From sequence record NC_028903.1: DNA of 64,000 nt, one strand, 5' to 3'. Every line of letters begins with the position of its first letter. The first letter of the stretch is position 1. Positions 2,533 to 45,699 of this stretch are shown here, one piece after another. The translations under genes were made by a program, and so were the position numbers. The DNA is from Escherichia phage 172-1. Below the pieces are notes generated by a model. That model was given only the letters and a program-made list of their open reading frames with translations. It was not told the DNA's origin and did no database searches.

Positions 2533-3617
2533 TGCCACAAGATAATTATATTGACCCGAACGATTTTAAATCTTTCCTCCAACTGGATGACCTGAAAGGC
2601 TCTTTTAAAGAAGAGCTTGGTCGATTAGAATCTGAACAAGAACCAGAAGTGGACATTGACGACGAGTTCCCGGAAGATACCGGTGACAACTTCGACTTTG
2701 ATACCGACCTTCTCGGTGAAAGCGATGAGCTTAAGTTCGAAGATGAAGATGGTTGGGAAGATCATGATGAGGAAGGCGAAGTCGAAGAAGATGGGGATGA
2801 CTCTGACGAAGGTGATGAAAACACTGAAGCAGAAGAGGAAGACTCAAGCGATGCAGGATATGAAGATGATTCTGCTGACGGTGATGGTGAAGTCTTTGAT
2901 GTAGACTACGAAACCGTTATCACCCTTCCTGATGGACGTGAGATGACTATTGAAGAACTCTCCAATGGCTATCTTACTGGTGCTGACATGACTGAACGAG
3001 AATCAACTCTTCAGCGTCACATGGAAGCATTTGAGGAACGTGTAGTAGGTTTGAAGGATGTATTAGAATTAGCGTCTTTAGAAGCAGACCGAGTAATTGA
3101 AGATTACAACGGATTTGATTGGGACAAGCTTGCAGTAGAAGATCCTCAAGCATATGTTGAAAACAAACGTTTCCTAGAGAAGTACACAGCTCGTCGTAAC
3201 CAGCTTGAACAGGCTCAGATGCGTGTTAAGCAGGAAGCAGCAGCTAAAGAACAGGAAGCTTTCCAAGCCAAAAGTGTTGAGTGCGTTAATATTCTGAAAC
3301 GTGAGATTCCAAATTGGGATGAAAACTTATATCAAAACTTAATGCAATATGCAATTGACTTAGGTGCTACTGAAGAAGAAGTATTGAAGGAAAACCGTCC
3401 GTCTATTTTCCTAGCTCTCCATAAAGCATACCAATTTGATAAAGGTAAGCAGCAGGTGATGGCTAAGATTAAACGTCCCGGTGCTCCACGCAAGGTTGTG
3501 AAGTCTGATGCTGCAAAGTCTCGTACTTCCAATAAGCCAGACAACGCTAAGGTTGCCAAGGCATTCGCAGAGGGTCGCGTTAGTCACGAAGACGCATTCA
3601 AATTCCTCGTAGATTAA
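2532..3617 (+). CDS. scaffolding protein (putative)
   Basis: 361 aa, extremely Asp/Glu-rich N-terminal half, helical C-terminus, located between portal and capsid. Confidence 0.55.
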   Translation: MPQDNYIDPNDFKSFLQLDDLKGSFKEELGRLESEQEPEVDIDDEFPEDTGDNFDFDTDLLGESDELKFEDEDGWEDHDEEGEVEEDGDDSDEGDENTEAEEEDSSDAGYEDDSADGDGEVFDVDYETVITLPDGREMTIEELSNGYLTGADMTERESTLQRHMEAFEERVVGLKDVLELASLEADRVIEDYNGFDWDKLAVEDPQAYVENKRFLEKYTARRNQLEQAQMRVKQEAAAKEQEAFQAKSVECVNILKREIPNWDENLYQNLMQYAIDLGATEEEVLKENRPSIFLALHKAYQFDKGKQQVMAKIKRPGAPRKVVKSDAAKSRTSNKPDNAKVAKAFAEGRVSHEDAFKFLVD

Positions 3618-3658: not shown

Positions 3659-4720
3659 ATGGCTAATCCAACTTTATTTGTATCGTATGACCAGAATGGT
3701 AAAAAACTTTCTTTTGCTAACTGGATTTCTGTTCTGTCCCCTCAGGATACTCCGTTCGTATCTATGACCGGTAAAGAGTCTATCAACCAGACTATCTTTA
3801 GCTGGCAGACCGATGCACTGGCAAGCGTTGATGGTAATAACGCACACGTCGAAGGCTCTCGTGCTGAAGACGGCGAAATGAAACCGACTGTTATCAAGTC
3901 TAACGTTACTCAGATTCTGCGTAAGGTTGTTCGTGTTTCTGACACTGCTAACACCACCGCTAACTACGGTCGTGGTCGTGAACTGATGTATCAGCTGGAG
4001 AAGAAAGGTAAAGAGATCAAGCGTGACCTCGAGAAAATCCTTCTGTCCGGTCAGGCTCGTACCGACGTTCTGGCTGACCAGTATCTGACTAACTCCGCAG
4101 CTGATCCGACTCAGATTGGTAAGAACGACACCCATGCAGCTCGTAAGACTGGTGCATTCCAGTTCCTGTGTGCTCACGGCGGTCTGACTGGTGGCGTTGT
4201 TGACAAAACCAAGAATGGTCCTGCTGACCCAGATACCGGTGCTGTAACTGTTAAAGTTGCACAGAACACTTCTAACCCGGCTACTAACATCGGTTTTGAT
4301 GAAGCAGATATCTTTGATATGACTCTGCAACTTTACACCGCTGGTTCTGAAGCAGATATCATCATGATTAACCCGGCTCATGCTAAGATCTTCGCTGGTC
4401 TGCAAGAAAACACTCAGGGTTCACGTAAGCGTATCTTTGAGAACACCAAGCAGTTCATCTACGAAGTTAACAGCATCACTGACCCGCTGGGCCAGAGCTA
4501 CAAAATCATCGTTAACCGTTGGATGCCTACCGATGCAGTTTACTTCTTCCGTAGCGCTGACTGGACCCAGATGGTTCTGCGTGCTCCGAAACGTACCGAA
4601 CTGGCAAAAGATGGTTCTTACGAAAAATGGATGATTGAGATGGAAGTTGGTCTGCGTCACCGCAACCCGTATGCTTCCGGTGTTCTGTTCACTGCTGCGG
4701 GAAAGGCAGTGGCGGCGTAA
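3659..4720 (+). CDS. major capsid protein
   Basis: 353-aa ORF after scaffold gene with RBS aggag upstream; size and position typical of HK97-fold capsid; followed by Ig-domain frame. Confidence 0.65.
   Translation: MANPTLFVSYDQNGKKLSFANWISVLSPQDTPFVSMTGKESINQTIFSWQTDALASVDGNNAHVEGSRAEDGEMKPTVIKSNVTQILRKVVRVSDTANTTANYGRGRELMYQLEKKGKEIKRDLEKILLSGQARTDVLADQYLTNSAADPTQIGKNDTHAARKTGAFQFLCAHGGLTGGVVDKTKNGPADPDTGAVTVKVAQNTSNPATNIGFDEADIFDMTLQLYTAGSEADIIMINPAHAKIFAGLQENTQGSRKRIFENTKQFIYEVNSITDPLGQSYKIIVNRWMPTDAVYFFRSADWTQMVLRAPKRTELAKDGSYEKWMIEMEVGLRHRNPYASGVLFTAAGKAVAA
4699..4705 (+). other. putative -1 programmed ribosomal frameshift slippery heptamer G_GGA_AAG
   Basis: GGGAAAG in capsid 0-frame (codons gga aag), 13 nt before capsid stop; -1 frame open from 4639 to 5247. 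Confidence 0.5.
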
Positions 4721-5247
4721 CAGTAGATACCATAACTGTTAGTCCTTCGTCGGTTGCAAGCCTTCCGACGGGGGCTACTCAGCAGTTTACAGCTACAGCA
4801 CAAATGAGTGATAGCTCCACATCAACAACTGGATTTGTTTGGTCCGTTGAGGGTGGTGGGGCTATTTCTGTTTCTGGACTGTACACTGCACCGAGTGCGT
4901 CGCAAGAAACCCCGATCACAGTGAAAGCTACTAAAGGTGGTAAATCCGGTACATCTACAATCTCAGCTATTGCTGACCCTGAACCTACAATTGTAAGTCG
5001 TGGTCCTATTGCTGGTAAAGTCGGTGGTTCTACTACTGCCTTCTCTACAATGTTTACTGTAACCAATTCTGCTGGTAGTGATTATGATTTTGTTGTAACC
5101 CCTACTGAAGCAGGTGCTGTCAGTGCAGCTGGTCTTTTGACTCTTGCTGATGCTGCTACTGGTACAGTCTCTGTTGCAGCTACACACAAGACTAAACCTC
5201 TTGTAACAGCCACTTGTGAATTCACAGGTGTTACCCCCAAAGCCTAA
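4699..5247 (+). CDS. capsid C-terminal extension with Ig-like (Big_2) domains, predicted -1 frameshift product
   Basis: -1 frame after slip reads GKGSGGVTVDTITVSPSSVASLPTGATQQFTATA..., a Gly linker plus Big_2-type motif that starts upstream of the ATG at 4804 of the listed ORF 4804..5247; no SD before that ATG. Confidence 0.5.
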   Translation, partial: GKGSGGVTVDTITVSPSSVASLPTGATQQFTATAQMSDSSTSTTGFVWSVEGGGAISVSGLYTAPSASQETPITVKATKGGKSGTSTISAIADPEPTIVSRGPIAGKVGGSTTAFSTMFTVTNSAGSDYDFVVTPTEAGAVSAAGLLTLADAATGTVSVAATHKTKPLVTATCEFTGVTPKA

Positions 5248-5346: not shown

Positions 5347-6099
5347 ATGGCGATGCCAGAAGTGCAAAACCCGATTAACACGTATGGCTGGCTTAAGAAA
5401 GCTGTTGCCTTGTGGGCCGATCGAGACGATGATGAATTTGTTAATCAAATTCCAAACTTTATTAACTTTGCAGAGAAAGAGATTTATCGTAACTTACGTA
5501 TCCCTCCTCTGGAAAAAGAAGTGTATTTAGATATTAAAGATGGAGTAGCTTACATTCCTCCTGATTACTTAGAAGCTCAGTGGATGATGAGAGCCAAAGA
5601 TGGTACAATCTTCCAAGTAACGTCTCCTGAAGAGATTAGCTATCGTAGACAGCATGGAACAATTAACCCATCTCATTGGAATAACCAACCTGTTAACTTT
5701 GCTCGTTTCGGTAGTCGTTTCATTTTCTATCCTAGCATCGAAGCAGATACTCCTGTTTATCCTGATGATGGAAGCCCTTTGATTCCAGCAGAAAACTCAG
5801 TAATTCTCAGTTATTATGCAGACCCACCGGAATTCCATGAAGATACAGACACTAGTGCTATCCTTACTATTGCACCAGAACTTCTTCTATATTTCACTCT
5901 ACGTCATGCTTGCTTGTTTGTTCAAGATGATAATGGAGTTCAGAAATGGTCTGCATTAGGAAAAGCTATCCTTGATGAAATGGTAGAGCAGAATAAGAAA
6001 CAAGAGTACTCAGGTTCACCTATCGCAATTCCGAATAACATGACTCGGCTTCAGAGCAGCTTGCCTGACATTTATGGTATTCGTACTTCTCGTGTATAA
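5347..6099 (+). CDS. virion structural protein (adaptor or tail tubular candidate)
   Basis: 250-aa ORF with strong RBS aaggagga, positioned between capsid and tail fiber genes. Confidence 0.4.
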   Translation: MAMPEVQNPINTYGWLKKAVALWADRDDDEFVNQIPNFINFAEKEIYRNLRIPPLEKEVYLDIKDGVAYIPPDYLEAQWMMRAKDGTIFQVTSPEEISYRRQHGTINPSHWNNQPVNFARFGSRFIFYPSIEADTPVYPDDGSPLIPAENSVILSYYADPPEFHEDTDTSAILTIAPELLLYFTLRHACLFVQDDNGVQKWSALGKAILDEMVEQNKKQEYSGSPIAIPNNMTRLQSSLPDIYGIRTSRV

Positions 6100-6108
6100 G
6101 GAGATAAT

Positions 6109-8667
6109 ATGATCGTTTATAATAACCAAGCACCTGATGCAGTGAATAACGTTGGGCAGTTTGGTGCTACTGAAGGCTCTATCGGAGCTTACAAGCAAGC
6201 AGCAGAATACGCAGCTGACTCCAAATATTGGGCACTGCTAGCGGAATCTAAGTTTGGTACAATTGATGACTTGATCGCTGAAGTAGAACGTCTGTATCAA
6301 CAAGGTGTTCTGATGAAGCAGGATATTGAAGATCTTAAACAAGATTTTAAAGATCAAGATGCTCGTCTTATGACCTTGATTGCCCAGACTAACGCAGCTG
6401 TTTCTGATGCGAATAACGCTGTTGCTTTAATCAATCAGAAACTTATTGAAGTCCAGAATCAGCTTGACGTTCTGTTAGGAATGTCCGTTGATGTAACCAC
6501 ACTTCCTCCGGGAACTCCGGCTACTGGTTCTTTTAATCCTAACACTGGTGTAATCTCTCTAGGTATCCCAGAAGGCGAACCCGGAAAGGATGGTTCTGTT
6601 AAGGATTTAGACACAGCTCCTACTGGTGTTCCAGAGCTAGGTGATTTAGGTTTCTATGTTGACAAAGATGACAATACCGTCCACAAAACTACTCTAGATA
6701 ACATTGCTAACTTAATCCCATCTGTTCGTTCTGTCTCTATTAACGGCGGTCCAGCTCTTGATGGAGAGGTTGCTCTAACACTTAACAAAGAGACGGTAGG
6801 TTTAGGAAATGTTCTGAACGTCGCTCAGTACAGTCGTCAAGAGATTAATGACAAATTTGACAAGACTACCAAGACATACCAATCAAAAGCAGAAGCTGAT
6901 GCTGATGCTCAGTATCGTCAAGTAGGTGAGAAAGTTTTAGTTTGGGAAGCTACTAAGTATGAATTCTATACTGTTGCTGCTAACAAAACACTGACTCCTG
7001 TTAAAACTGAAGGTAGAATTCTTACCGTTAACTCTCGCTCTCCAGACTCAAGCGGTAATATCGATATCACGATTCCAACAGGTAACCCGTCTTTGTATCT
7101 TGGTGAAATGGTAATGTTCCCTTACGACCCATCTAAGAATATCTCCTACCCAGGAGTTCTTCCTGCTGATGGTCGTCTGGTATCAAAAGAATCTGCTCTC
7201 GACTTAGGCCCATCTCTTGTCAGTGGTCAGCTTCCTGTAGTCTCTGAAACTGAATGGCAAGCAGGGTCTAAACAATATTTCTCATGGGGTAAGCTAGCAG
7301 ATGGGATTACTGATGCGGATTCTACTAATTTCATCAATATTCGACTTCCTGATTGGACTGGAGGGGAGGCAATAAGAGCACCAGATTCTGATAAAGATTC
7401 TCAATACAATGGGTCTGTACAGGCTCAGAAACCTTATGTTGTCACGGTAAATAACCAAGCTCCTGATGAGATTACAGGGAACGTAACCCTCTCCAGATCT
7501 ATCTTGGGAGCAGCTTCTTCTGGTGCAAACTCTGATATAACATCCCTGACAGGACTCACTACAGCTCTCTCTATCGCTCAAGGTGGTACAGGAGGGAAAA
7601 CTCCATCTGAAGCTAGGGCAAACCTAAATCTTGAAAGATTTCAACAAGACAACTCGCAGACTTTGATATATTCTCCTGATTATGCCCGTCGTGTTTATGT
7701 TGACAACACTGGTGGTTCTTGGGGGTGCCAGAACGTAACAGATGGCGGTTTTATTGCTCTTGGTATTCCTCAAGGGGGTACAGGAGCTAAGGATGCTGCT
7801 GGTGCACGAAGTAATCTCGGTTTGGGTTCAGTGTCCACACTAAACAATATACCCGTAGCTAATGGAGGTACTGGAGCAACTACTGCTGCTGGTGCTCGTT
7901 CCAACTTAGGTCTTGGGAGTGTTTCTACTCTGGATAATGTACCTATTGCTAATGGTGGGACAGGGGCAGCTGATGCTGCTGGTGCAAGGTTTAATATTGG
8001 AGCACTAAGTAGCACCCCAGCAAATACAGGTGTTGGTGGTACTGGTAATCGCGTCCAACATGCATCCGGGAATGGCCTGTTTACTTTAGACATGTTTAAC
8101 TGCTACTGGTATATGCAGCCAGAGGATACTAACTTCTGGGTTGCCCACAGTGTATCATATGCAGGATCTGGTGGCGAAGCCTCTGGATACGGTCGTATAA
8201 CTTACGCAATAAAGATTGCAGATGGAACAACAAAATATGTCCATTGTCTTACAAACAAAAATACTATTACCGATGTAAGCGGTTTTATCAAAGCGGCATC
8301 TCCGGTAGTTAATATTTACGCCAACGGTCGATATGAGACGAACGATGAATCTGAGGGGGTCAATGTCATTCGGCAAGGTGTCGGTGAGTATTTGATTACC
8401 GGTTGCCTAGGCTTAAACGCAGATGCAAAATGGGGAGGTATCGACGGCGGCTTTGAAATCCCTATTGACCGCAACAAACAGCCTAGGGTTTGGCTTGATT
8501 ATGAGGTTAAAGAAGATGGTTCTATTTTAGTCAAGACCTATCACAGAACCCATTCAACATCCCCAGTTTTTGCTAGAAACGAGTTGGAAGGTTTTTCTGA
8601 CGGTGACCCAATCGATATCCCTGCCGATGCTTTCGTATCAGTTCGTGTTGAAATGCCTTCTAATTAA
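6109..8667 (+). CDS. tail fiber protein
   Basis: 852 aa; tandem fiber-type repeats GGTGA..AAGARSNLGLGSVSTL(N/D)N(I/V)P(V/I)ANGGTGA in the central region. Confidence 0.6.
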   Translation: MIVYNNQAPDAVNNVGQFGATEGSIGAYKQAAEYAADSKYWALLAESKFGTIDDLIAEVERLYQQGVLMKQDIEDLKQDFKDQDARLMTLIAQTNAAVSDANNAVALINQKLIEVQNQLDVLLGMSVDVTTLPPGTPATGSFNPNTGVISLGIPEGEPGKDGSVKDLDTAPTGVPELGDLGFYVDKDDNTVHKTTLDNIANLIPSVRSVSINGGPALDGEVALTLNKETVGLGNVLNVAQYSRQEINDKFDKTTKTYQSKAEADADAQYRQVGEKVLVWEATKYEFYTVAANKTLTPVKTEGRILTVNSRSPDSSGNIDITIPTGNPSLYLGEMVMFPYDPSKNISYPGVLPADGRLVSKESALDLGPSLVSGQLPVVSETEWQAGSKQYFSWGKLADGITDADSTNFINIRLPDWTGGEAIRAPDSDKDSQYNGSVQAQKPYVVTVNNQAPDEITGNVTLSRSILGAASSGANSDITSLTGLTTALSIAQGGTGGKTPSEARANLNLERFQQDNSQTLIYSPDYARRVYVDNTGGSWGCQNVTDGGFIALGIPQGGTGAKDAAGARSNLGLGSVSTLNNIPVANGGTGATTAAGARSNLGLGSVSTLDNVPIANGGTGAADAAGARFNIGALSSTPANTGVGGTGNRVQHASGNGLFTLDMFNCYWYMQPEDTNFWVAHSVSYAGSGGEASGYGRITYAIKIADGTTKYVHCLTNKNTITDVSGFIKAASPVVNIYANGRYETNDESEGVNVIRQGVGEYLITGCLGLNADAKWGGIDGGFEIPIDRNKQPRVWLDYEVKEDGSILVKTYHRTHSTSPVFARNELEGFSDGDPIDIPADAFVSVRVEMPSN

Positions 8668-33304: not shown

Positions 33305-33448
33305 TTAGCTCCAAGATTTAGCTTTTACTTCAACGTAGGTTTTAACCTCACCTTTCAGTACTTCCTGAGAAGCATTTGCACTTTCTTCAGAGGTGTGCAC
33401 AACGGTGATCTCTTTCTTTCCAATCTTATAAGTGTGAACCCAAATCAT
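33305..33448 (-). CDS. small ORF (47 aa), hypothetical
   Basis: ATGA overlap with the upstream small ORF; not in ORF track. Confidence 0.25.
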   Translation of the reverse strand: MIWVHTYKIGKKEITVVHTSEESANASQEVLKGEVKTYVEVKAKSWS

Positions 33449-33612
33449 TCCTCTTCCTCGTATTCCCAATTTCTTTCATAATATCCAGAGTTGTAGTTTA
33501 GGGCGCATTTCTCAGCCTCTTCTATGTCATCGGTATTTAGGATATTAACCCATCCACCAACTTCATCAAAACCTTCATCTACTTCATTAAACCATACACT
33601 GTACTTTTTCAT
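33445..33612 (-). CDS. small ORF (55 aa), acidic C-terminus
   Basis: ATG overlaps the stop of 33609..34001 (ATGA coupling); reads MKKYSVWFNEVDEGF...; not in ORF track. Confidence 0.3.
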   Translation of the reverse strand: MKKYSVWFNEVDEGFDEVGGWVNILNTDDIEEAEKCALNYNSGYYERNWEYEEEE

Positions 33613-39891: not shown

Positions 39892-40042
39892 TTCCGCATT
39901 CTCTAAAAGTGGCAGGCATATAATCTACATCACCTTCAGATGTATGACCATAGACTTGAATAAGTTTCTTAATCTTATCCTTCTCTCTTCGAGGAAGCAT
40001 TCTAAATGCCTCCTGAATATCTGTAATATGTTTTATCTTCAT
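39809..40042 (-). CDS. hypothetical small protein
   Basis: 77-aa ORF. Confidence 0.3.
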   Translation of the reverse strand: MKIKHITDIQEAFRMLPRREKDKIKKLIQVYGHTSEGDVDYMPATFRECGIARNFTFDRKVFQQFVDHWRKDGKESL

Positions 40043-40188
40043 CAGAAATTCCTGCTAATCCTCTGAGTTGTGGGAACAGCAATATTCACATACTCCACAA
40101 CAAGGGCAAATTTCTACACTTGGGTCATATGCATCATCAACTGTCATCCCACACTTGGTGCAGAACACATCATCATCTTCTTCCAATA

Positions 40189-40845
40189 TTAATTCTCCAA
40201 AGTTTTCTTCAGAGCTGCCCACGAGATTGGGTAGAGTTTAGCCATCTCTTCATCCAGAGATTGAGCAAACACTCGAACTTCATACTGAGCATGGGAGGAT
40301 AGTCGCTGACGACACAACTCAAACCAGCCATACAAAGAACCAGTCCACACCCACTCAGTGATCATTCCCTGAGGAAGAACAAATCGGGCTTGTTCTGGTG
40401 CAACGAACTCAATCAACTTGTCATATGCTGCTAGAGAAGCTTCATATGCATCGTTAATCAACATTAATGCTTCAGCTCGCTCTCCATTGATGAGTTGAAC
40501 CCCTGAACCTGCATGGAGGTCCGAAGGTCTCGCAAAAATCTCTTTAGGGATGAAGACTTCAACTGCTCCGTCTTTATACCTCCGGGACATTTCGTTCCAC
40601 GAAAACCCAATTTGGTGCTTGCCCAACTGTCTCGCAATTGCGATAGGTGCTTTGCATCGGAAACTGACTTGTGGGTGTCGGAATGGAGTAACATGCTTCT
40701 CTCTTGCGAGGAAGTTGATGAGACGTTCATCACGTTCATTTAAATCACCTTCACGGGTTACGCCAAAGGAAACTCGAGCTGCGTTTACTACGCTACGATC
40801 ACTTCCCATAGCTTCGATTAATGTTGCTTGTAATTGTTCATTCAT
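40189..40845 (-). CDS. thyX: flavin-dependent thymidylate synthase
   Basis: AARVSFG ... HVTPFRHPQVSF ... ARQLGKHQIGFSWNEMSRRY resembles the ThyX signature region (RHR-x7-S..SxRY). Confidence 0.7.
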   Translation of the reverse strand: MNEQLQATLIEAMGSDRSVVNAARVSFGVTREGDLNERDERLINFLAREKHVTPFRHPQVSFRCKAPIAIARQLGKHQIGFSWNEMSRRYKDGAVEVFIPKEIFARPSDLHAGSGVQLINGERAEALMLINDAYEASLAAYDKLIEFVAPEQARFVLPQGMITEWVWTGSLYGWFELCRQRLSSHAQYEVRVFAQSLDEEMAKLYPISWAALKKTLEN

Positions 40846-40860
40846 CCGTGAATTTCCTTA

Positions 40861-41070
40861 TTAATATTCTTTTACATAATAAACCACTAAGGTTCCCATC
40901 TCTGACAATGTTGATTTATGTAAGCTTACTTTACTATAAATCTTTGGGGCCATCTTAAGAGCCTTCTTAAAACGGCGAGCATCTTTACGAGTAGCAAAGT
41001 GCTCTGTAACAGGTATAGCCGGGTCTTGGTAGAGGTAATATACCACCGTCCAATATTTTTTCATAATCAA
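40861..41070 (-). CDS. small protein, paralog family B
   Basis: MKK.W.V ... TRK.ARRFKK ... VYY pattern shared with 42925, 43134, 43343. Confidence 0.4.
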   Translation of the reverse strand: MIMKKYWTVVYYLYQDPAIPVTEHFATRKDARRFKKALKMAPKIYSKVSLHKSTLSEMGTLVVYYVKEY

Positions 41071-41393
41071 ACACCTAGGGCAGTAGTTAAGAATGCTTTC
41101 AGGTTTGCTTCGGTCTGCATACCAGAGAGACTATAGTGTGCACCACTATTACGGTCAGGTACAACGAAAGCAGGGATGCTTCTTACACCATACTTAACAG
41201 CTTGTTCACGACCATCACCTTCAAGGATGTTAATCTCTTCTACTTCTACATCGAACTCCTTAACAACCTTCTCAAAGGTAGGAGCCATTGCTTTACATGG
41301 AGCACACTGATCACTATAAAACTTAATCACTTTAGACATTCTATTCCTTGTTAATAAACAGGTTGATATGACGTTGGGTAGCAGGAACAACAA
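41067..41393 (-). CDS. thioredoxin-like protein
   Basis: CAPC active-site motif in a 108-aa thioredoxin-sized ORF. Confidence 0.6.
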   Translation of the reverse strand: MLFLLPNVISTCLLTRNRMSKVIKFYSDQCAPCKAMAPTFEKVVKEFDVEVEEINILEGDGREQAVKYGVRSIPAFVVPDRNSGAHYSLSGMQTEANLKAFLTTALGV

Positions 41394-41529
41394 TAAAAGA
41401 TTTATACTGACCTTTTGCTAAGTCATGAGCAATCTTCTTTGTCTGACCAAGACCCATCACACAGCCACTAACAATAATGGCGTGTGCTTGCAACTCTTCA
41501 GGGAGTTTTAGTTTCATTCTTCAGGTTCC

Positions 41530-41715
41530 TTACAGCATAGCAAGAATGATAATAAGAGGTAATGTTATAGCGAAATTAATAAGAACAGCGCTGCCTAGCT
41601 TGATAGCTTTAACATCCTCTTCTGATGGGTTTTCTTTAATTGCTAAATTTCGAGCTTTATATATAACAGTACCAATTATTAACGACCACACGGCCCACAC
41701 AATCAGTGAAATCAT
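41530..41715 (-). CDS. small two-TM membrane protein
   Basis: 61 aa, two hydrophobic helices; paralog of the adjacent unlisted ORF. Confidence 0.4.
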   Translation of the reverse strand: MISLIVWAVWSLIIGTVIYKARNLAIKENPSEEDVKAIKLGSAVLINFAITLPLIIILAML

Positions 41716-41724
41716 ATCAAACCC

Positions 41725-41904
41725 TTATGCAGTCAGGAGGTGAAGCAGGAATGGGATAACAACAGCTACGACAACCATGATGGTTGATGCTGTTTGAATC
41801 TCACCTTTCTTGTCAGGAGTTTCTTCAATAAGCTTGCCAGAAGCCCAATAGATACCACCACCAATAAAGACAGCCCAAATACCCCATACGATTGCTGATA
41901 ACAT
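41725..41904 (-). CDS. small two-TM membrane protein (paralog, unlisted)
   Basis: 59-aa ORF MLSAIVWGIWAVFIGGGIYWASGKLIEETPDKKGEIQTASTIMVVVAVVIPFLLHLLTA, similar to 41530..41715. Confidence 0.3.
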   Translation of the reverse strand: MLSAIVWGIWAVFIGGGIYWASGKLIEETPDKKGEIQTASTIMVVVAVVIPFLLHLLTA

Positions 41905-41965
41905 ATATCTATATCCTTATAAATAAGTTCGCCCCACCTCGGGTTAGGAGACAGGGCGGAGGTTT

Positions 41966-42565
41966 TTAGTAAGACACATCGCCACTTGAGTGGGACATGT
42001 TGCTCTTGACGAAGTAGCAATACTTGCCAAGACCTTCATTAATTTCTTGAAGCATACTCTGATCAACTGGATAAGTGGCTAAATCACCATCAAACTCATC
42101 CATCTTCTCAATAATACACATCAAGGTCATGCACATATCAGAGAGCATACCGTCCATATCTAGGTCAGCATTACCCTCTGAGAACCAAGCATGGGAGAGA
42201 TAATTGGCTGCTGTGGCGTCCACTTTAACACAGTGGTAACGCATACGTTCAGCAATACGATCTCCTACTTGTCGTGCGTAATCTTCCAGCTCATCAAACA
42301 TACCATGAACACCCTGAAATCCTGCACCAGAGACGTTCCAATGGTAGTTTTTAGCTTTGATATGCAAGAGTTCCATGTTAGCTTGTAAGCAGCTCAGGAT
42401 GTGTTCTAGGCTGTTTCCACTAATCATACCCTGCATTGTTTCAAGGCGAGAGATTGAAAGCTCGGACCGGTCTAACATATTGTATTCGACACGACCAATA
42501 TCAGGTAAATCAAAGACATTCTTATGCATTTGGGTTATCTCCATCAAGTTCAACTGAATTAGCAA
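41966..42565 (-). CDS. Dps-like ferritin-fold protein
   Basis: NYHWNVSGAGFQGVHGMFDELEDYARQVGDRIAERM matches the Dps ferroxidase-site region. Confidence 0.6.
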   Translation of the reverse strand: MLIQLNLMEITQMHKNVFDLPDIGRVEYNMLDRSELSISRLETMQGMISGNSLEHILSCLQANMELLHIKAKNYHWNVSGAGFQGVHGMFDELEDYARQVGDRIAERMRYHCVKVDATAANYLSHAWFSEGNADLDMDGMLSDMCMTLMCIIEKMDEFDGDLATYPVDQSMLQEINEGLGKYCYFVKSNMSHSSGDVSY

Positions 42566-42851
42566 CGTTACGTTCGATGTTTGCCATCACTTGCTGCGTT
42601 ATGACAATACAGTTCTGTGGGTCTACTGACTTAGAACGCCCCATTTCAGGGTCATACACCTTAACTCGCTTAGCAGTTGAACCTGTAACCTGAAGAACCT
42701 TCAACAGATATCCCTGATTACCAATAGACCAAGCAACAACATCACGATTCTTGATAAAGCGACCAAGCATATCACGATGATAAAACTGTTGCATCACCTT
42801 GGATTTTGTAATCTCTTCAGTGGGCGGGGCCACTTTACTCAAATCTAACAT
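42522..42851 (-). CDS. hypothetical protein
   Basis: 109-aa ORF; AAATGTATA motif about 41 nt upstream (42892-42900, reverse). Confidence 0.35.
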   Translation of the reverse strand: MLDLSKVAPPTEEITKSKVMQQFYHRDMLGRFIKNRDVVAWSIGNQGYLLKVLQVTGSTAKRVKVYDPEMGRSKSVDPQNCIVITQQVMANIERNVANSVELDGDNPNA

Positions 42852-42924
42852 AACTCTCTCCTGTAAAAATACAAATTCTTATTGTACTCTATATACATTT
42901 GAGAGTTACCATATCTACTACCAA

Positions 42925-43134
42925 TCAGTAGTAAACATTCCGAGATAGCATACAAGTACTTTCTGAGAATTCAACCCAACGGTGTATGCTAACATGCTCA
43001 ACCGTACCGACCAGAGCTTTCATATTCTTTTTAGCAATACGAGCCTCTTTGCGAGTGTTAAACAGTTTGATATTATCTTTTCCCAAGTGTTGCTCGTGAT
43101 TCCAAACAACACGAATAGCCCACATCTTTTTCAT
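42925..43134 (-). CDS. small protein, paralog family B
   Basis: tandem paralog (..TRKEARIAKKNMK ... VYY). Confidence 0.45.
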   Translation of the reverse strand: MKKMWAIRVVWNHEQHLGKDNIKLFNTRKEARIAKKNMKALVGTVEHVSIHRWVEFSESTCMLSRNVYY

Positions 43135-43343
43135 CAGTAGTGTACCTTTCCGCTGATATAAACACGACCAGAGGAATACTCTCTGGCCTTATGAATACTG
43201 ATGCTCTTGATCATATCTATATTAAACATGGACTTTTTAAAATCTCGAGCTTGTTGGCGAGTAGGTAGTGCAGTCATAGTCATACCGCCTGATGCCCACT
43301 TAATCTTTGCTAACCAAAACTGTCTCATAGTGATTGGTCTCAT
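43134..43343 (-). CDS. small protein, paralog family B
   Basis: tandem paralog (..TRQQARDFKKSM ... VHY). Confidence 0.45.
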   Translation of the reverse strand: MRPITMRQFWLAKIKWASGGMTMTALPTRQQARDFKKSMFNIDMIKSISIHKAREYSSGRVYISGKVHY

Positions 43344-43540
43344 TAATAATAAACCTTGCTGTTGGCAAAAAGAGCACCTTCGTTATTCACAATAGCTTTT
43401 CCTATTGTAACCTTATTGAGTCTAAAAGTAGACTTGTATTGGTTTTTGACCCTACGGGCGTGTTCTCGAGTATTAACAAAATCTACAGCTACTAACTCTC
43501 CAGTCGTGTTATCATGTACACGAACAATCCACTTTTTCAT
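43343..43540 (-). CDS. small protein, paralog family B
   Basis: tandem paralog (..TREHARRVKNQYK ... VYY). Confidence 0.45.
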   Translation of the reverse strand: MKKWIVRVHDNTTGELVAVDFVNTREHARRVKNQYKSTFRLNKVTIGKAIVNNEGALFANSKVYY

Positions 43541-43743
43541 TTTACTAAACCCTTCATAAAGTTATAAAGATCATTAGAGGCTTTACCCCATTCAAGGTGC
43601 TTCTTATCCATATAGCTCTTACATGCTTCTTTACTACTTTCGACGCATATATCAAATTGATGACATGCTCGACCAAATGTCATAGCTTTTAATTGAACCT
43701 CGGTAGTCAAACCTTTCAGTTCTTGGAACTCTTCTTCAGTCAT
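43537..43743 (-). CDS. hypothetical small protein
   Basis: 68-aa ORF. Confidence 0.35.
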   Translation of the reverse strand: MTEEEFQELKGLTTEVQLKAMTFGRACHQFDICVESSKEACKSYMDKKHLEWGKASNDLYNFMKGLVK

Positions 43744-44277
43744 TTACACACCCTTAGATGCAACAACACCTTCAGAGTTATTATAACGACCCTTCACTGC
43801 ATAGGAATGTTCCCCTGCATGAGAGTGCTCAAACATCACCATCTGACCAACACGCATACCAGCACGAACTCGTAAGCTATGATGCTTGGTTACGTTGTGG
43901 AATTCAAACGTCAGCTTACTGCTATTAAATCCAGCATCAGCCCATCCAGCATGTAGGTGGTTCAAACCACAACGAGCCATAGATGAACGAAGAACAAACA
44001 GGCTTGAGATATTATCTGGAAGATTAAACTCCTCCATGGAGTGAGCCAAGAAGAACTGACCCGGAGTGATAACCAAACCCTCTTCAGGAATCTTTACTTC
44101 CTTCCACTGAAGATTTTCTTTCGCATCAATATCAACGATGCCATCAGCCTGTTCTTCAACAAGGATAGTATCACCAATACGGATATCCACACTAGCAGCG
44201 TTAACATACTTATGCTCCGCATCCAGATAGCCATTGTCAATTACATCGTGCAGTTCAACACTTCCTAGTAAACTCAT
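43744..44277 (-). CDS. dCTP deaminase / dUTPase-family protein
   Basis: VDIRIGD ... ITPGQFFLAHSMEEFNLP ... LRSSMARCGLNH ... FEFHN ... GMRVGQMVMFEH parallels E. coli Dcd. Confidence 0.7.
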   Translation of the reverse strand: MSLLGSVELHDVIDNGYLDAEHKYVNAASVDIRIGDTILVEEQADGIVDIDAKENLQWKEVKIPEEGLVITPGQFFLAHSMEEFNLPDNISSLFVLRSSMARCGLNHLHAGWADAGFNSSKLTFEFHNVTKHHSLRVRAGMRVGQMVMFEHSHAGEHSYAVKGRYNNSEGVVASKGV

Positions 44278-44286
44278 TCTTATTCC

Positions 44287-45699
44287 TTAGTTATTTGTTT
44301 CCATGTCAAAAGAGATTCCACGACCCGCTTCATCGGCAAACCGAACTGTACGGGTTTGAGGCTGCAATACTTCAGGGTTATCAGCAACAAAGCGATCAGC
44401 GAGACTGCGGCTGACGGTCTCAGCTAATTCACCATGAGAAGGGATATTAAGATCGGCGAGATTATCAACCACATCTTGGGCCACGTCTTCATCAGTCCAT
44501 ACAGCCCTAACAGGTGCGTTGAAACTCTGACCAGAGAACTGGTGACGGCTAACAGTCAAACCATTTGATTGACCATTAGAACGTCTAGACAACCACTGCT
44601 CAAATGAATCGCCAGTAACACCAAGAGCTTCTTCAAAAGATGTTCTACGAGTAGAGCTTAGATTTCGTGCTTCGTTTGCTCGACGTCTTGCAGGGGCTAC
44701 AAACACCCCTTCAACTGCATTGTGCCGATTAGGTTCATCTTCTCGACCAAGGAGATCTCCTCCTGTATTAGTTGTTAAGTTTGTCAACCCTTCAGACCAA
44801 TATGCACGAATCTGGCTAGAGCCATGAACACTTGACATTAACTGAATCTCTTCGTAAGGTATTCCAAAGAATAGACTCATGTCTCGGTTAACACAGTATT
44901 GAGCACTTGTTGTATCCTCAATAAGAGAAACCTGACCTAATCCATTAACCAGATGACTAACTGGCTGAGGTGTAGGAAGGTATCGAGTTTGGGCCATATA
45001 TTGATATGCAACAGATGGAGCTGAGAATCTTAACACTTGTGAATTAGGCCACTTTTTGTGAACGTATCTGATTTCACGACTAGAAACAACCACAGGGCAA
45101 GGAGCGGTCATAGCTAAATATCCATGAGGAGTCATGAATAGGTTGTCAAGAGTCATCGCACCACGGCACATCATAGGAAAATTATCCAATACCTCTTCAA
45201 TAGAAGTAGGATAATTAAACATGAATTGAATGCGGGTTCCATTCCACTGAAACTCAATAATATCAGTGAATGTTAATTGAGAACCCCCAGCATATGATTC
45301 GTTTGTAGCTTCAGCAAGAAGGGATGCATACTCGATATCTTGTGATTCAAGCCACTCTTTCACATTGCTTTCAATCTCTCGTCCAAGAGCTTGCCAATGA
45401 TCAACTGTAGTGAAAGTATTTTGAGTCCCTGGCGTCTGTCCTCTGACAACGAAGATATCAATATCGTGAGGTGCTATGTTATTAAGCACGGCATCACGAA
45501 CAGCCCCACCAGTAATGATAGGGCAAATGCCGTCTGGAATCAAGTTGTTGTTAATCAACTGTTCAATGAAGTGACGACCAACAGTGATATCAGGTTGTTG
45601 AGCAACCTTATCTTCAATTCGGTTAATCGGGATAACAATCATTTTACATTTTCCAATATAATGAAGGTGGGTCGTAAGGGTCAAATCCCGTGAGTTCAC
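44287..45699 (-). CDS. nucleotidyltransferase, CCA-adding enzyme / poly(A) polymerase-like head domain
   Basis: [23 protein letters not shown] matches the class II NTase signature GGxVRD...DxD. Confidence 0.55.

What the first reader, a model, noticed from the sequence alone, without database searches (positions are those of the whole stretch)
40861..43540. Paralog family B: small basic proteins with T-R-x-[EQ]-A-R-x-x-K-K core and C-terminal V-Y-Y
Three tandem ORFs (42925, 43134, 43343) plus one 2 kb away (40861) are 65-69 aa, begin MKK/MR, share W-x-(V/I)-(R/K)-V near the N-terminus, a central TR(K/Q/E)(E/Q/H)AR..KK block and end in (V/I)(Y/H)Y. They are interleaved with nucleotide-metabolism genes. 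No function is evident; the basic conserved block suggests nucleic-acid or protein binding.
Basis: seen in the sequence. Interest (0 to 1): 0.6.

Follow-up and report, generated by a model that had tools for sequence, protein, structure and literature searches.

The report
Small basic phage protein paralog family
Four small, strongly basic genes in this phiEco32-like E. coli phage are true paralogues of an uncharacterised family confined to this phage lineage; they are real, conserved and fast-evolving, probably bind nucleic acid, and their function is unknown.

Summary
The window is a Kuravirus (97% identical to phage NJ01). Four minus-strand genes (43343-43540, 43134-43343, 42925-43134, 40861-41064) are homologous: pairwise BLASTP E 1e-4 to 5e-8, and leave-one-out HMM E 1e-6 to 2e-9 against 0.03 or worse for any other ORF. 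All four match phrog_4939 (unknown function). There is no fifth copy.

The family is tiny: 30 clusters among 1.84 billion representatives, nearly all from phiEco32-like podophages. It occupies two deeply conserved slots: an array of 1 to at least 4 copies after dCTP deaminase, directly upstream of the P68 middle promoter, and one copy between thioredoxin and ThyX.

The copies are under purifying selection (dN/dS 0.12-0.30) but evolve much faster than flanking genes, with shuffled alleles and variable copy number. All members are basic (pI 9.5-11.1) and carry an invariant Arg-Arg-Lys stripe.

Best guess, inferred only: sub-functionalised small nucleic-acid-binding factors. The main rival is host-takeover or anti-defence protein binders. 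This is an ordinary kind of phage feature of modest interest.

The parts
43343..43540 (-). Family copy 'D' (65 aa, MKKWIVRVHDN...SKVYY); first gene of the tandem triplet; orthologue of phiEco32 phi32_71. Its start overlaps the stop of the upstream 68-aa gene by 4 nt (ATGA).
   Evidence: ORF; phrog_4939 E 6.7e-28; alignment; orthologue mapping; junction sequence
43134..43343 (-). Family copy 'C' (69 aa; the conserved core starts at MRQFW...; ends GKVHY); orthologue of phi32_70. This is the most widely conserved lineage and the only copy in phage Bas93. It shares 1 nt with each neighbour (TAATG upstream, TGATG downstream).
   Evidence: (E 6.2e-28); AlphaFold model pLDDT 82.7
42925..43134 (-). 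Family copy 'B' (69 aa, MKKMWAIRVVW...NVYY); orthologue of phi32_69; last gene before the P68 promoter. It is the most variable lineage (58-96% aa identity within Kuravirus, where flanking genes are 95-100%).
   Evidence: (E 1e-27); AlphaFold model pLDDT 84.5, pTM 0.69
40861..41064 (-). Family copy 'A' (67 aa from the ATG at 41064; an alternative TTG lies at 41070), sitting between thioredoxin and ThyX. It is accessory within Kuravirus (absent from phiEco32, SU10 and IMEP8), but the slot is conserved in distant relatives.
   Evidence: (E 9.5e-26)
42892..42902 (-). AAATGTATATA, a match to the phiEco32 gp36-sigma middle/late promoter consensus (tAATGTAtA). It lies in the 73-nt gap between copy B and the 109-aa gene and corresponds to the experimentally mapped P68. 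It marks the triplet as the 3' end of the early transcription unit.
   Evidence: Motif search (7 sites against 2.2 expected); sequence; literature PMC4281155, PMC8948821, PMC12276001
43744..44277 (-). Context anchor: dCTP deaminase. It lies directly upstream of the family array in every relative examined.
   Evidence: Pfam DCD E 3.5e-34; synteny
43537..43743 (-). Context: 68-aa gene between dCTP deaminase and the array (phrog_2347, unknown function). It is not a family member and is absent from phiEco32.
42522..42851 (-). Context anchor: highly conserved 109-aa protein (phi32_68 orthologue, phrog_10984, unknown function). It is the first middle gene and always follows the array.
   Evidence: (95-100% identity within Kuravirus)
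41966..42436 (-). Context anchor: Dps/ferritin-like 'DNA-binding protein' (phi32_67 orthologue). The start codon is uncertain; the mechanical ORF extends to 42565, and the orthologue annotations imply a start near 42529.
   Evidence: Pfam Ferritin E 1.6e-7, phrog_3636 E 1.4e-55
41067..41339 (-). Context anchor: thioredoxin, directly upstream of copy A.
   Evidence: Pfam Thioredoxin E 2.5e-13
40189..40845 (-). Context anchor: flavin-dependent thymidylate synthase ThyX, starting 15 nt downstream of copy A.
   Evidence: Pfam Thy1 E 8.8e-44

Best explanation
SHOWN: The four ORFs are genuine protein-coding members of a small, lineage-restricted multigene family (phrog_4939). Members are 65-80 aa, single-domain and strongly basic, with a predicted beta-hairpin / alpha-helix / beta-hairpin fold. 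The family is found in phiEco32-like (Gordonclarkvirinae and related) prolate podophages.

It occupies two anciently conserved slots in the leftward replication and nucleotide-metabolism cluster:
(i) an array of 1 to at least 4 translationally coupled copies between dCTP deaminase and the P68 middle promoter, that is, the last genes of the sigma70-driven early unit;
(ii) a single copy between thioredoxin and ThyX.

The family evolves by birth and death. The A, B, C and D lineages predate the split of three genera and each has its own conserved signature. All are under purifying selection, but they evolve several-fold faster than their neighbours, with allele shuffling.

INFERRED (mechanism): Each copy is a small polyanion binder, most likely of nucleic acid (RNA or DNA). 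Binding would use the family-invariant basic stripe on one side of the single helix (R28, R32, K35 and usually K39, all within a 60-degree arc) together with conserved aromatic and His residues (W5, H51, C-terminal Tyr). The lineage-specific beta3-beta4 hairpin and loops would give each paralogue its own target or partner. On this reading they are sub-functionalised accessory factors acting on phage or host nucleic acid around the early-to-middle switch and the onset of replication. The stated confidence applies to this inferred mechanism. Confidence that this is a real, selected paralog family is above 0.95.
For: Homology and coding:
- establish homology.
- dN/dS is 0.12-0.30 for the four lineages across 6-11 genomes.

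Restriction to one lineage:
- 103 clusters, all from Kuravirus-like contigs.
- Only 30 representative clusters at E below 1e-3 among 1.84 billion proteins.
- None found in 185,579 bacterial and archaeal genomes, although that scan detects close relatives only.

Fold:
- Two independent AlphaFold models (pLDDT 84.5 and 82.7) give the same b-b-a-b-b topology.

Synteny and copy number.

Early/middle boundary:
- Promoter motif at 42892-42902.
- Literature.

Basic character and motif:
- Every one of 37 diverged members is basic: pI 9.5-11.1, net charge +5 to +12.
- W, R28 and R32 are invariant; T27, A31, K35 and the terminal Y are at least 90% conserved.
- Helical-wheel angles are R28 100, R32 140, K35 80 and K39 120 degrees, next to the core-facing A31/A34/M38/L41 side.

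Sub-functionalisation:
- Only about 9 columns share a consensus across the four lineages, while each lineage has strongly conserved lineage-specific segments.

Weak hints, all below significance, all to RNA-binding alpha/beta modules:
- CELF1 RRM RNP1-alpha2 segment, E 0.013.
- KH-type RNA-processing protein, E 0.025.

Neighbouring genes act on DNA, RNA or nucleotides: dCTP deaminase, a CCA-adding-type nucleotidyltransferase, exonuclease, primase/helicase, Dps-like protein, thioredoxin and ThyX.
Against: - Basicity is not rare among small proteins of this phage: 10 of 48 others have pI of 9.5 or more.
- The invariant Arg, Lys, Trp and Tyr residues could be purely structural, for example cation-pi pairs or a salt bridge to the C-terminal carboxylate.
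- T27 and E30 look like a helix N-capping box.
- Fast evolution, allele shuffling and variable copy number are more typical of host-interaction or anti-defence genes than of core nucleic-acid-handling factors.
- There are no experimental data on any member.
Confidence: 0.4

Rival explanations
1. Host-takeover or anti-defence protein binders. Each paralogue is a small inhibitor or adaptor that binds a different host protein (or a variant of one), and the family diversifies in an arms race. The conserved core is only a scaffold.
For: - The triplet lies at the end of the early (host-takeover) transcription unit.
- Copy number ranges from 1 to at least 4-5 between related phages.
- Within Kuravirus the copies are 52-100% identical or absent while flanking genes are 95-100% identical, and alleles are shuffled between phages.
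- Median dN is 0.06-0.23 against 0.00-0.03 for flanks, and omega is 2-5 times higher.
- Substitutions in copy B cluster in the loops and the beta3-beta4 hairpin.
- Gordonclarkvirinae are reported as highly resistant to tested defence systems with no known mechanism (PMC11990801).
Against: - All members, across at least six lineages, keep the same strong positive charge and the same invariant R/R/K stripe. That points to a common ligand class rather than diverse protein targets.
- Known small phage inhibitors of DNA-binding defence proteins are typically acidic (general knowledge, not tested here).
- The genes sit in fixed, deeply conserved slots among replication genes, not in the hypervariable right-hand early region.
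- dN/dS is well below 1 overall.
- Dmd dropped out of the top 60 for the second model.
- There are no PADLOC matches, though that library holds defence systems, not anti-defence proteins.
Confidence: 0.28
2. Accessory or regulatory subunits of the neighbouring enzymes, such as modulators of dCTP deaminase, ThyX/thioredoxin, the Dps-like protein or the 109-aa gp68. They would be kept adjacent to their partners for co-expression.
For: - The adjacency is extremely conserved. The order thioredoxin, copy, ThyX (about 15 nt spacing) holds in the window, Paul, WFI101126, MN05, EcoN5 and the distant contigs L005, L006 and L010.
- The order dCTP deaminase, copies, 109-aa gene, Dps-like gene holds in every context long enough to show both flanks.
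- The tandem copies are translationally coupled.
Against: - Copy A is absent from phiEco32, SU10, IMEP8, SU7, O18-011 and Bas93 although ThyX and thioredoxin are present.
- The enzymes are nearly invariant while the copies diverge strongly, with no sign of co-variation.
- An experimentally mapped promoter separates the array from gp68 and Dps.
Confidence: 0.12
3. Sponge for nucleotide-based immune signals or other small phosphorylated ligands. Oligomers of the small subunit would sequester cyclic oligonucleotides or ADPR-derived messengers using the conserved Trp, Tyr, His, Arg and Lys residues.
For: - The conserved residue set (W, Y, H, R, R, K) is of the kind used to bind nucleotides.
- The proteins are small, early-expressed and phage-restricted.
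- The subfamily is broadly resistant to defence systems.
Against: - No sequence or fold similarity to Acb2, Tad1, Tad2 or other known sponges appeared in the PDB searches.
- There is no evidence for oligomerisation.
- The resemblance rests only on residue types.
Confidence: 0.05
4. A very distant branch of the bacterial DUF2188 (PF09954) superfamily, whose function is itself unknown. The shared pattern would be W-x-V, T-x-x-E-A, I-H, G, Y.
For: - The pattern resemblance was recalled from memory. The recalled consensus was verified as DUF2188 at E 6.7e-29.
- hhalign places the two profiles in the expected register over 28 columns.
Against: - hhalign probability is only 2.4%, P = 0.02, against a profile of 120 real DUF2188 proteins.
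- No DUF2188 hit for any of 37 members at E up to 10.
- The T-x-x-E-A segment is a generic helix N-capping motif.
Confidence: 0.1
5. Chance similarity, or non-functional, decaying duplicates.
For: One relative (L008/L009) carries a shorter 61-aa member that lacks the C-terminal hairpin. Copies are lost in some phages.
Against: - Leave-one-out E values are 1e-6 to 2e-9.
- dN/dS is 0.12-0.30 with intact ORFs in every genome.
- Each lineage is conserved across three genera.
Confidence: 0.02

Closest known systems
PHROG family phrog_4939 (unknown function); 'hypothetical proteins' phi32_69/70/71 of phiEco32, SU10_069-071, NJ01_076/083/084/085
   Same: All four window proteins match the family model over its full length (E 1e-26 to 6e-28). 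They are 59-100% identical to the NJ01 orthologues.
   Different: Nothing differs; this is the family. It has no assigned function, and its paralogy, synteny and evolution are not discussed in any paper I could search. NJ01_076 is annotated 'putative ABC transporter', which nothing here supports.
RRM / ferredoxin-like RNA-binding modules (CELF1 RRM, ribosomal protein bS6) and 'palm' sub-domains
   Different: The topology is b-b-a-b-b with one helix, not b-a-b-b-a-b. There are no RNP1/RNP2 motifs, no Pfam RRM hit, and all scores are below significance.
DUF2188 (PF09954)
   Same: Similar size, similar order of secondary-structure elements, and a similar W-x-V ... T-x-x-E-A ... I-H ... G pattern. 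hhalign aligns the profiles in that register.
   Different: Not statistically supported (probability 2.4%; no hmmscan hit). DUF2188 is bacterial and lacks the R/R/K stripe and the C-terminal Tyr terminus.
Small phage-encoded inhibitor proteins with alpha/beta folds (T4 Dmd antitoxin, AcrIIC3)
[not shown]
   Different: There is no evolutionary or functional connection. Sequence identity is 8-14%. The match is a generic sheet-plus-helix arrangement.

Membership tests
phrog_4939 | Significant full-length match to the family HMM | tested here: met
   E 9.5e-26, 1e-27, 6.2e-28 and 6.7e-28, covering profile positions 1-67 of 67
phrog_4939 / phiEco32 gp69-71 orthologues | Syntenic position between dCTP deaminase and the gp68 / Dps-like genes | tested here: met
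   the same order holds in the distant contigs L002, L003, L005, L026 and L028
DUF2188 (PF09954) | Pfam HMM match above the gathering threshold | tested here: not met
   No hit for the four proteins at E up to 10 or for any of 37 family members
DUF2188 (PF09954) | Profile-profile similarity to an alignment of real DUF2188 proteins | tested here: inconclusive
   hhalign probability 2.4%, P 0.02, 28 columns aligned in the expected register. The DUF2188 profile was shallow (Neff 2.9).
RRM (RNA recognition motif) | b-a-b-b-a-b topology with RNP1 and RNP2 motifs | tested here: not met
   Predicted topology is b-b-a-b-b. No Pfam RRM hit. Only a sub-threshold local match to CELF1, with per-domain E of 8.8 and 69.
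[not shown]
   [not shown]
AbrB/MazE swapped-hairpin DNA binders (same nominal b-b-a-b-b order) | Pfam SpoVT/AbrB match, or structural match to AbrB-N or MazE | tested here: not met
   [not shown]
Known anti-phage defence proteins (PADLOC-DB) | HMM match | tested here: not met
   No family at E up to 1
Nucleic-acid-binding proteins (functional class) | Demonstrated binding to DNA or RNA | not testable with these tools
   Only indirect support: pI 9.5-11.1 in all 37 members and an invariant basic stripe
phiEco32 early gene class | Transcribed from sigma70 early promoters, upstream of the first gp36-dependent promoter (P68) | tested here: inconclusive
   The P68 motif is present directly downstream of copy B. 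The SU10 paper lists CDS25-68 as middle and CDS74 and above as early. Copy A lies inside the middle cluster.

The most novel reading that the evidence does not exclude
The family is a previously unrecognised small nucleic-acid-binding fold that is universal in Gordonclarkvirinae. Its members would coat or mark phage DNA (or bind phage transcripts) early in infection. [quoted passage not shown] Alternatively, they could supply the postulated antitermination or processivity function needed for the very long polycistronic leftward transcripts (PMC8948821).
Probability: 0.08. Interest if true: 0.7.

Novelty: new member of a known kind. Interest (0 to 1): 0.3.

Why it matters
Small lineage-specific gene families in phage early regions are commonplace, and most turn out to be host-interaction or accessory factors. 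On present evidence this finding is an ordinary example.

Three things lift it slightly above background:
1. Its position is deeply conserved at the early/middle boundary of the replication cluster across very diverged phages, while the genes themselves turn over quickly.
2. It has an unusually sharp invariant signature (W, T-R-x-x-A-R-x-x-K, C-terminal Tyr) on a confidently predicted fold with no recognisable relatives.
3. It is present in every Gordonclarkvirinae genome examined here. These therapeutically used phages have broad, unexplained resistance to bacterial defence systems.

BASEL isolates Bas86-93 now plate on a modified E. coli K-12 (O16 O-antigen restored), so deletion and complementation tests are practical.

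Tried and rejected
1. Pfam on the four proteins and on 37 family members at E up to 10: only scattered single-member noise.
2. NCBIfam and PADLOC: nothing significant.
3. Profile search of all PDB sequences: only a sub-threshold CELF1 RRM match.
5. DUF2188 lead (from memory): the consensus was verified as DUF2188 and 120 real members were collected. hhalign gave 0.7% against the single sequence and 2.4% against the profile. Not supported.
6. A possible fifth copy at 33305-33469(-), which recurred weakly in leave-one-out searches: hhalign probability 0.1%, rejected.
7. IMG/VR scan: only three kuravirus loci. The scan of bacterial and archaeal genomes found no relative.
8. tblastn of the distant members P0113 and P0127 against isolate phages: no close matches, so they come from uncultured phages.
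9. The primary phiEco32 genome and macroarray papers could not be read, so the temporal class rests on secondary statements.
10. Literature searches for locus tags, the PHROG id, anti-defence or toxicity screens: nothing on these genes.
11. Basicity as a discriminator within this genome: weak, since 21% of other small proteins are equally basic.
12. A resemblance of T-R-x-x-A-R-R-x-K-K to the arginine-rich motifs of lambdoid N proteins was considered from memory only. It was not tested and is not relied on.
Full report
IDENTITY OF THE WINDOW

Bases 40000-45000 are 97.1% identical over their full length to Escherichia phage NJ01, and 87-97% identical to about 90 other phiEco32-like phages. NJ01 is classified as Caudoviricetes; Gordonclarkvirinae; Kuravirus. 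The finding lies in the leftward-transcribed cluster. GC skew is negative from about 28 kb onward, and all the relevant genes are on the minus strand.

CHECKING THE OBSERVATION

The four ORFs exist as described, on the minus strand: 43343-43540 (65 aa, 'D'), 43134-43343 (69 aa, 'C'), 42925-43134 (69 aa, 'B') and 40861-41070. The last one ('A') more plausibly starts at the ATG at 41064, giving 67 aa beginning MKKYW. That matches its orthologues and its upstream sequence.

MAFFT alignment gives invariant M1, W5, T27, R28, A31, R32, K35 and the terminal Y. Pairwise BLASTP of B against D, C and A gives E 1e-4, 5e-8 and 1e-6.

To avoid circularity I built HMMs from three copies at a time and searched all 765 stop-to-stop ORFs of the window. 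Each held-out copy was the next-best hit (E 9e-7 to 2e-9). The best unrelated ORF scored 0.03-0.9. Independently, all four match phrog_4939 end to end at E about 1e-26 to 1e-28.

A recurrent weak hit at 33305-33469 is not a member (hhalign probability 0.1%), so the window has exactly four copies. Nucleotide identity between copies is 51-60%, so these are old duplicates.

HOW WIDE THE FAMILY IS

The word-indexed search of 5.8 billion proteins with the four-member profile returned 103 clusters. None has a Pfam domain, and those on long contigs sit on contigs of about 70-79 kb, the size of these phage genomes. Each cluster falls into one of the four orthologous groups at 59% identity or more.

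An exhaustive HMMER search of 1.84 billion cluster representatives, using a 29-sequence profile, found only 30 clusters at E below 1e-3 and 11 below 1e-10. All are 47-82 aa single-domain proteins.

Foldseek against predicted viral structures recovered family members in Escherichia, Salmonella (SE131), Cronobacter (GAP52, vB_CsaP_009) and Aeromonas (LAh_8) phages, and otherwise only uncharacterised proteins. A pattern scan of 185,579 bacterial and archaeal genomes found no relative, although that scan detects close relatives only. IMG/VR held only three kuravirus loci.

Across 37 diverged members the signature reduces to:
- W in strand 1;
- T-R-x-x-A-R-x-x-K-(K/R) at the start of the helix;
- usually H in strand 3 and G in the last turn;
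- Tyr as the very last residue.

ANATOMY AND CONTEXT

The three tandem genes share one nucleotide at each junction (TAATG, TGATG). The first overlaps the upstream 68-aa gene by ATGA. The AAGG Shine-Dalgarno of each downstream copy is supplied by the K-V codons of the conserved C-terminal K-V-(Y/H)-Y of the copy before it.

The 73-nt gap after copy B contains AAATGTATATA at 42892-42902. This octamer core occurs seven times in the window against 2.2 expected. [quoted passage not shown] One of the six experimentally mapped promoters precedes gene 68, and P68 has been used as the model middle promoter.

In phiEco32 the triplet is phi32_71, 70 and 69. It lies directly between dCTP deaminase (phi32_72) and phi32_68. 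The SU10 paper assigns CDS25-68 to the middle class and lists CDS74 and above as early products. The triplet is therefore the 3' end of the sigma70-driven early unit. This is an inference from position, because the primary macroarray paper could not be read. No terminator-like site separates it from P68. Copy A lies within the middle cluster, between thioredoxin and ThyX.

The neighbours are:
- dCTP deaminase;
- a CCA-adding-type nucleotidyltransferase;
- a 3'-5' exonuclease and a primase/helicase upstream;
- a 109-aa conserved protein of unknown function;
- a Dps/ferritin-like protein;
- two small hydrophobic paralogues;
- thioredoxin and ThyX downstream.

CONSERVED SLOTS, VARIABLE OCCUPANCY

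I fetched contigs for eight of the distant members. In every contig long enough to show both flanks, the order is dCTP deaminase, family copy or copies, a 109-111 aa protein, then a Dps-like gene. The exception is the weakest member, P0129 (E 1e-3), which lies next to a DNA polymerase A gene. Several also have a copy immediately upstream of ThyX: after thioredoxin in L005 and L010, and with other small genes intervening in L006.

HMM counts across loci:

| Phage or contig | Tandem copies | Copy upstream of ThyX | Other | Total |
|---|---|---|---|---|
| Bas93 | 1 | 0 | | 1 |
| L003 | 1 | 0 | | 1 |
| SU7 | 2 | 0 | | 2 |
| L026 | 2 | 0 | | 2 |
| phiEco32, SU10, IMEP8, O18-011, EP335 | 3 | 0 | | 3 |
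| EcoN5, ECBP2 | 2 | 1 | | 3 |
| Window, NJ01, Paul, WFI101126, MN05 | 3 | 1 | | 4 |
| L005 | 2 | 1 | 1 divergent copy before thioredoxin | 4 |
| L002 | at least 4 | 0 | contig starts inside the array | at least 4 |
| L008 | 3 | contig ends before this slot | 1 shorter 61-aa member lacking the C-terminal hairpin | 4 |

A neighbour-joining tree is only indicative for such short sequences. It groups lineages A, B, C and D each across Kuravirus, Suseptimavirus (ECBP2) and Nieuwekanaalvirus (EP335), so these duplications predate those genera. The distant arrays add further lineages. This is birth-and-death evolution within two fixed slots.

EVOLUTIONARY RATE

Amino-acid identity to the window within Kuravirus, and dN/dS by Nei-Gojobori over 6-11 genomes:

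| Gene | aa identity to window | median dN | dN/dS |
|---|---|---|---|
| Copy C | 87-99% | 0.058 | 0.12 |
| Copy D | 71-100% or absent | 0.077 | 0.27 |
| Copy A | 52-100% or absent | 0.18 | 0.29 |
| Copy B | 58-96% | 0.23 | 0.30 |
| Flanking genes | 95-100% | 0.00-0.03 | 0.02-0.09 |

The flanking genes compared are dCTP deaminase, gp68, Dps-like, thioredoxin, ThyX and the exonuclease. They depart from 95-100% identity only where a homing endonuclease is associated with allele replacement.

Allele combinations are reshuffled between phages. NJ01 has D at 100%, C at 88% and B at 59%. phiEco32 has D at 86%, C at 99% and B at 61%. The copies are therefore functional and selected, but evolve faster and recombine more than their neighbours.

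Within copy B the scaffold segments stay constant (MKKMWAI.VVW, KDNIKLF.TRKEARIAKK, HRW). The beta1-beta2 loop, the loop after the helix and the beta3-beta4 hairpin vary. Each lineage has its own strongly conserved signature, for example EYSSGRVYISGKVHY in C. Only about nine columns share a consensus across the four lineages. This is the pattern of sub-functionalised paralogues on one scaffold.

STRUCTURE

AlphaFold2 on copy B gave pLDDT 84.5 and pTM 0.69 with a 29-sequence alignment. On copy C it gave pLDDT 82.7 and pTM 0.64. Both show the same order of elements: strand, strand, 11-12-residue helix, long strand, strand.

Simple helical-wheel geometry puts R28, R32, K35 and K39 within 80-140 degrees. 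They sit next to the core-facing A31, A34, M38 and L41. That makes a continuous basic stripe about three helical turns long. T27 and E30 look like an N-capping box (inference).

SEARCH FOR KNOWN RELATIVES

- Pfam: nothing for the four proteins and only single-member noise for 37 members at E up to 10.
- NCBIfam: one sub-threshold KH-type hit (E 0.025).
- PADLOC: nothing.
- PDB sequences: only a sub-threshold local match to the RNP1-strand/alpha2 segment of CELF1 RRMs (whole-sequence E 0.013; per-domain E 8.8 and 69).
- DUF2188: I recalled from memory that the pattern resembles this family. I verified the recalled consensus (E 6.7e-29 to PF09954), collected 120 real members and ran hhalign. The register was as expected, but the probability was only 2.4% (P 0.02, 28 columns). 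Membership is not established.

PHYSICO-CHEMISTRY

All 37 aligned members are basic: median pI 10.0, range 9.5-11.1, net charge +5 to +12. In this genome 10 of 48 other small leftward-cluster proteins also have pI of 9.5 or more. Basicity alone is therefore not distinctive. The informative point is its retention across every lineage.

LITERATURE

No searchable paper mentions these genes, their locus tags or the PHROG. SU10 proteomics did not detect CDS69-71. That is uninformative for 7-kDa K/R-rich proteins.

[quoted passage not shown] It speculates about the adjacent dCTP deaminase/nucleotidyltransferase locus. The 7-11 paper notes that an antitermination strategy for the long leftward transcripts 'remains to be defined'. 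Both are open phenotypes for which this family is an untested candidate.

INTERPRETATION

What is shown:
- a real, selected, lineage-restricted family of small basic alpha/beta proteins;
- two conserved genomic slots;
- variable copy number and ancient sub-functionalised lineages;
- accelerated evolution relative to neighbours.

What is inferred: I consider nucleic-acid (or other polyanion) binding through the invariant basic helix stripe the most likely mechanism, at about 0.4, with lineage-specific loops conferring specificity. The reasons are these. Positive charge and the R/R/K stripe are the only features conserved across all lineages. The genes are embedded among DNA, RNA and nucleotide enzymes. 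The only hints of similarity, all non-significant, are to RNA-binding alpha/beta modules.

The main rival, at about 0.28, is that they are protein-binding host-takeover or anti-defence factors. Their early position, copy-number variation, allele shuffling and raised dN favour this reading. Lesser rivals are enzyme accessory subunits (about 0.12), a remote DUF2188 relationship (about 0.1, not exclusive of the others) and nucleotide-signal sponges (about 0.05). Chance or pseudogenes are excluded.

VERDICT

The family is already catalogued but uncharacterised. As a kind of thing, a small lineage-specific paralog family in a phage early or replication region, it is ordinary. It is a new, functionally unassigned member of that kind. 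Interest is modest (0.3). There is a small chance (about 0.08) that it underlies the unexplained defence resistance or transcript processivity of these phages, which would be considerably more interesting.

Noticed in passing
window 41530-41715 (-) and 41725-41904 (-): A second tandem paralog pair. The proteins are 61 and 59 aa, hydrophobic (likely small membrane proteins), and both match phrog_9296 (E 1.7e-29 and 5.2e-34). They lie between the Dps-like gene and thioredoxin. Copy number also varies between relatives: phiEco32 and SU10 annotate one 59-aa gene here, while ECBP2, SU7 and WFI101126 annotate two or three small genes.
   Followed up: partly
window 5306, 16939, 22173, 31701 (+); 31628, 38190, 42892 (-): The phiEco32 gp36-sigma promoter core AATGTATA occurs 7 times against 2.2 expected. 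The three minus-strand sites fit the positions of middle promoters P40, P58 and P68. The plus-strand sites fit late promoters. This gives one more site than the six experimentally mapped promoters in phiEco32.
   Followed up: partly
L017 (EcoN5) 2815-3324; L020 (O18-011) 2882-3391 and 6086-6577; L015 (SU7) 6086-6577; L005 7367-7876: HNH homing endonuclease genes are inserted next to dCTP deaminase or ThyX in several relatives. Where an HNH gene follows dCTP deaminase (EcoN5, O18-011), the deaminase allele is only 59% identical to the window's, against 98-100% in the other Kuravirus-level genomes compared. ThyX drops to 79% where an HNH gene precedes it (O18-011, SU7). This suggests allele replacement or co-conversion linked to homing.
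   Followed up: no
L001 (NJ01) 2362-2565; L017 (EcoN5) 4605-5168; L018 (IMEP8) 4605-5168: Apparent database misannotations. The copy-A orthologue NJ01_076 is called 'putative ABC transporter'. The Dps/ferritin-like gene is called 'integrase' in EcoN5 and IMEP8. Small ORFs are labelled 'isoleucyl-tRNA synthetase' and 'anti-restriction nuclease' with no support seen here.
   Followed up: no
window 43134-43145, 43343-43356 (-): The conserved C-terminal Lys-Val codons (AAG GTN) of each tandem copy double as the AAGG Shine-Dalgarno of the next copy, and the stop and start codons share one base (TGATG, TAATG). Part of the C-terminal conservation may therefore reflect a dual coding and RBS constraint. 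K-V is less strictly kept in the last copy (B), which has no overlapping downstream gene.
   Followed up: partly
window 42522-42851 (-): The 109-aa protein that always follows the array (phi32_68 orthologue, phrog_10984) is among the most conserved genes in the region: 95-100% aa identity within Kuravirus and 90-95% in the other Gordonclarkvirinae genera compared, with dN about 0. It was detected in SU10 proteomics. It has no Pfam, NCBIfam or PADLOC match and no known function.
   Followed up: partly
window 44287-45642 (-): The nucleotidyltransferase (CCA-adding / poly(A) polymerase head domain, weak Pfam hit E 0.003) is unusually variable for an enzyme in this cluster: 79-96% identity within Kuravirus and about 31-35% in Suseptimavirus and Nieuwekanaalvirus, with dN/dS 0.20. 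The BASEL paper speculates that it takes part in an unknown DNA modification.
   Followed up: no
L008 2738-2923 / L009 2-223: A shorter family member of about 61 aa retains the F-Y-K-T-R-E-E-A-R-K-A-K-K motif but lacks the C-terminal hairpin. It sits at the head of a tandem array in an uncultured relative and may be a decaying or truncated copy.
   Followed up: no
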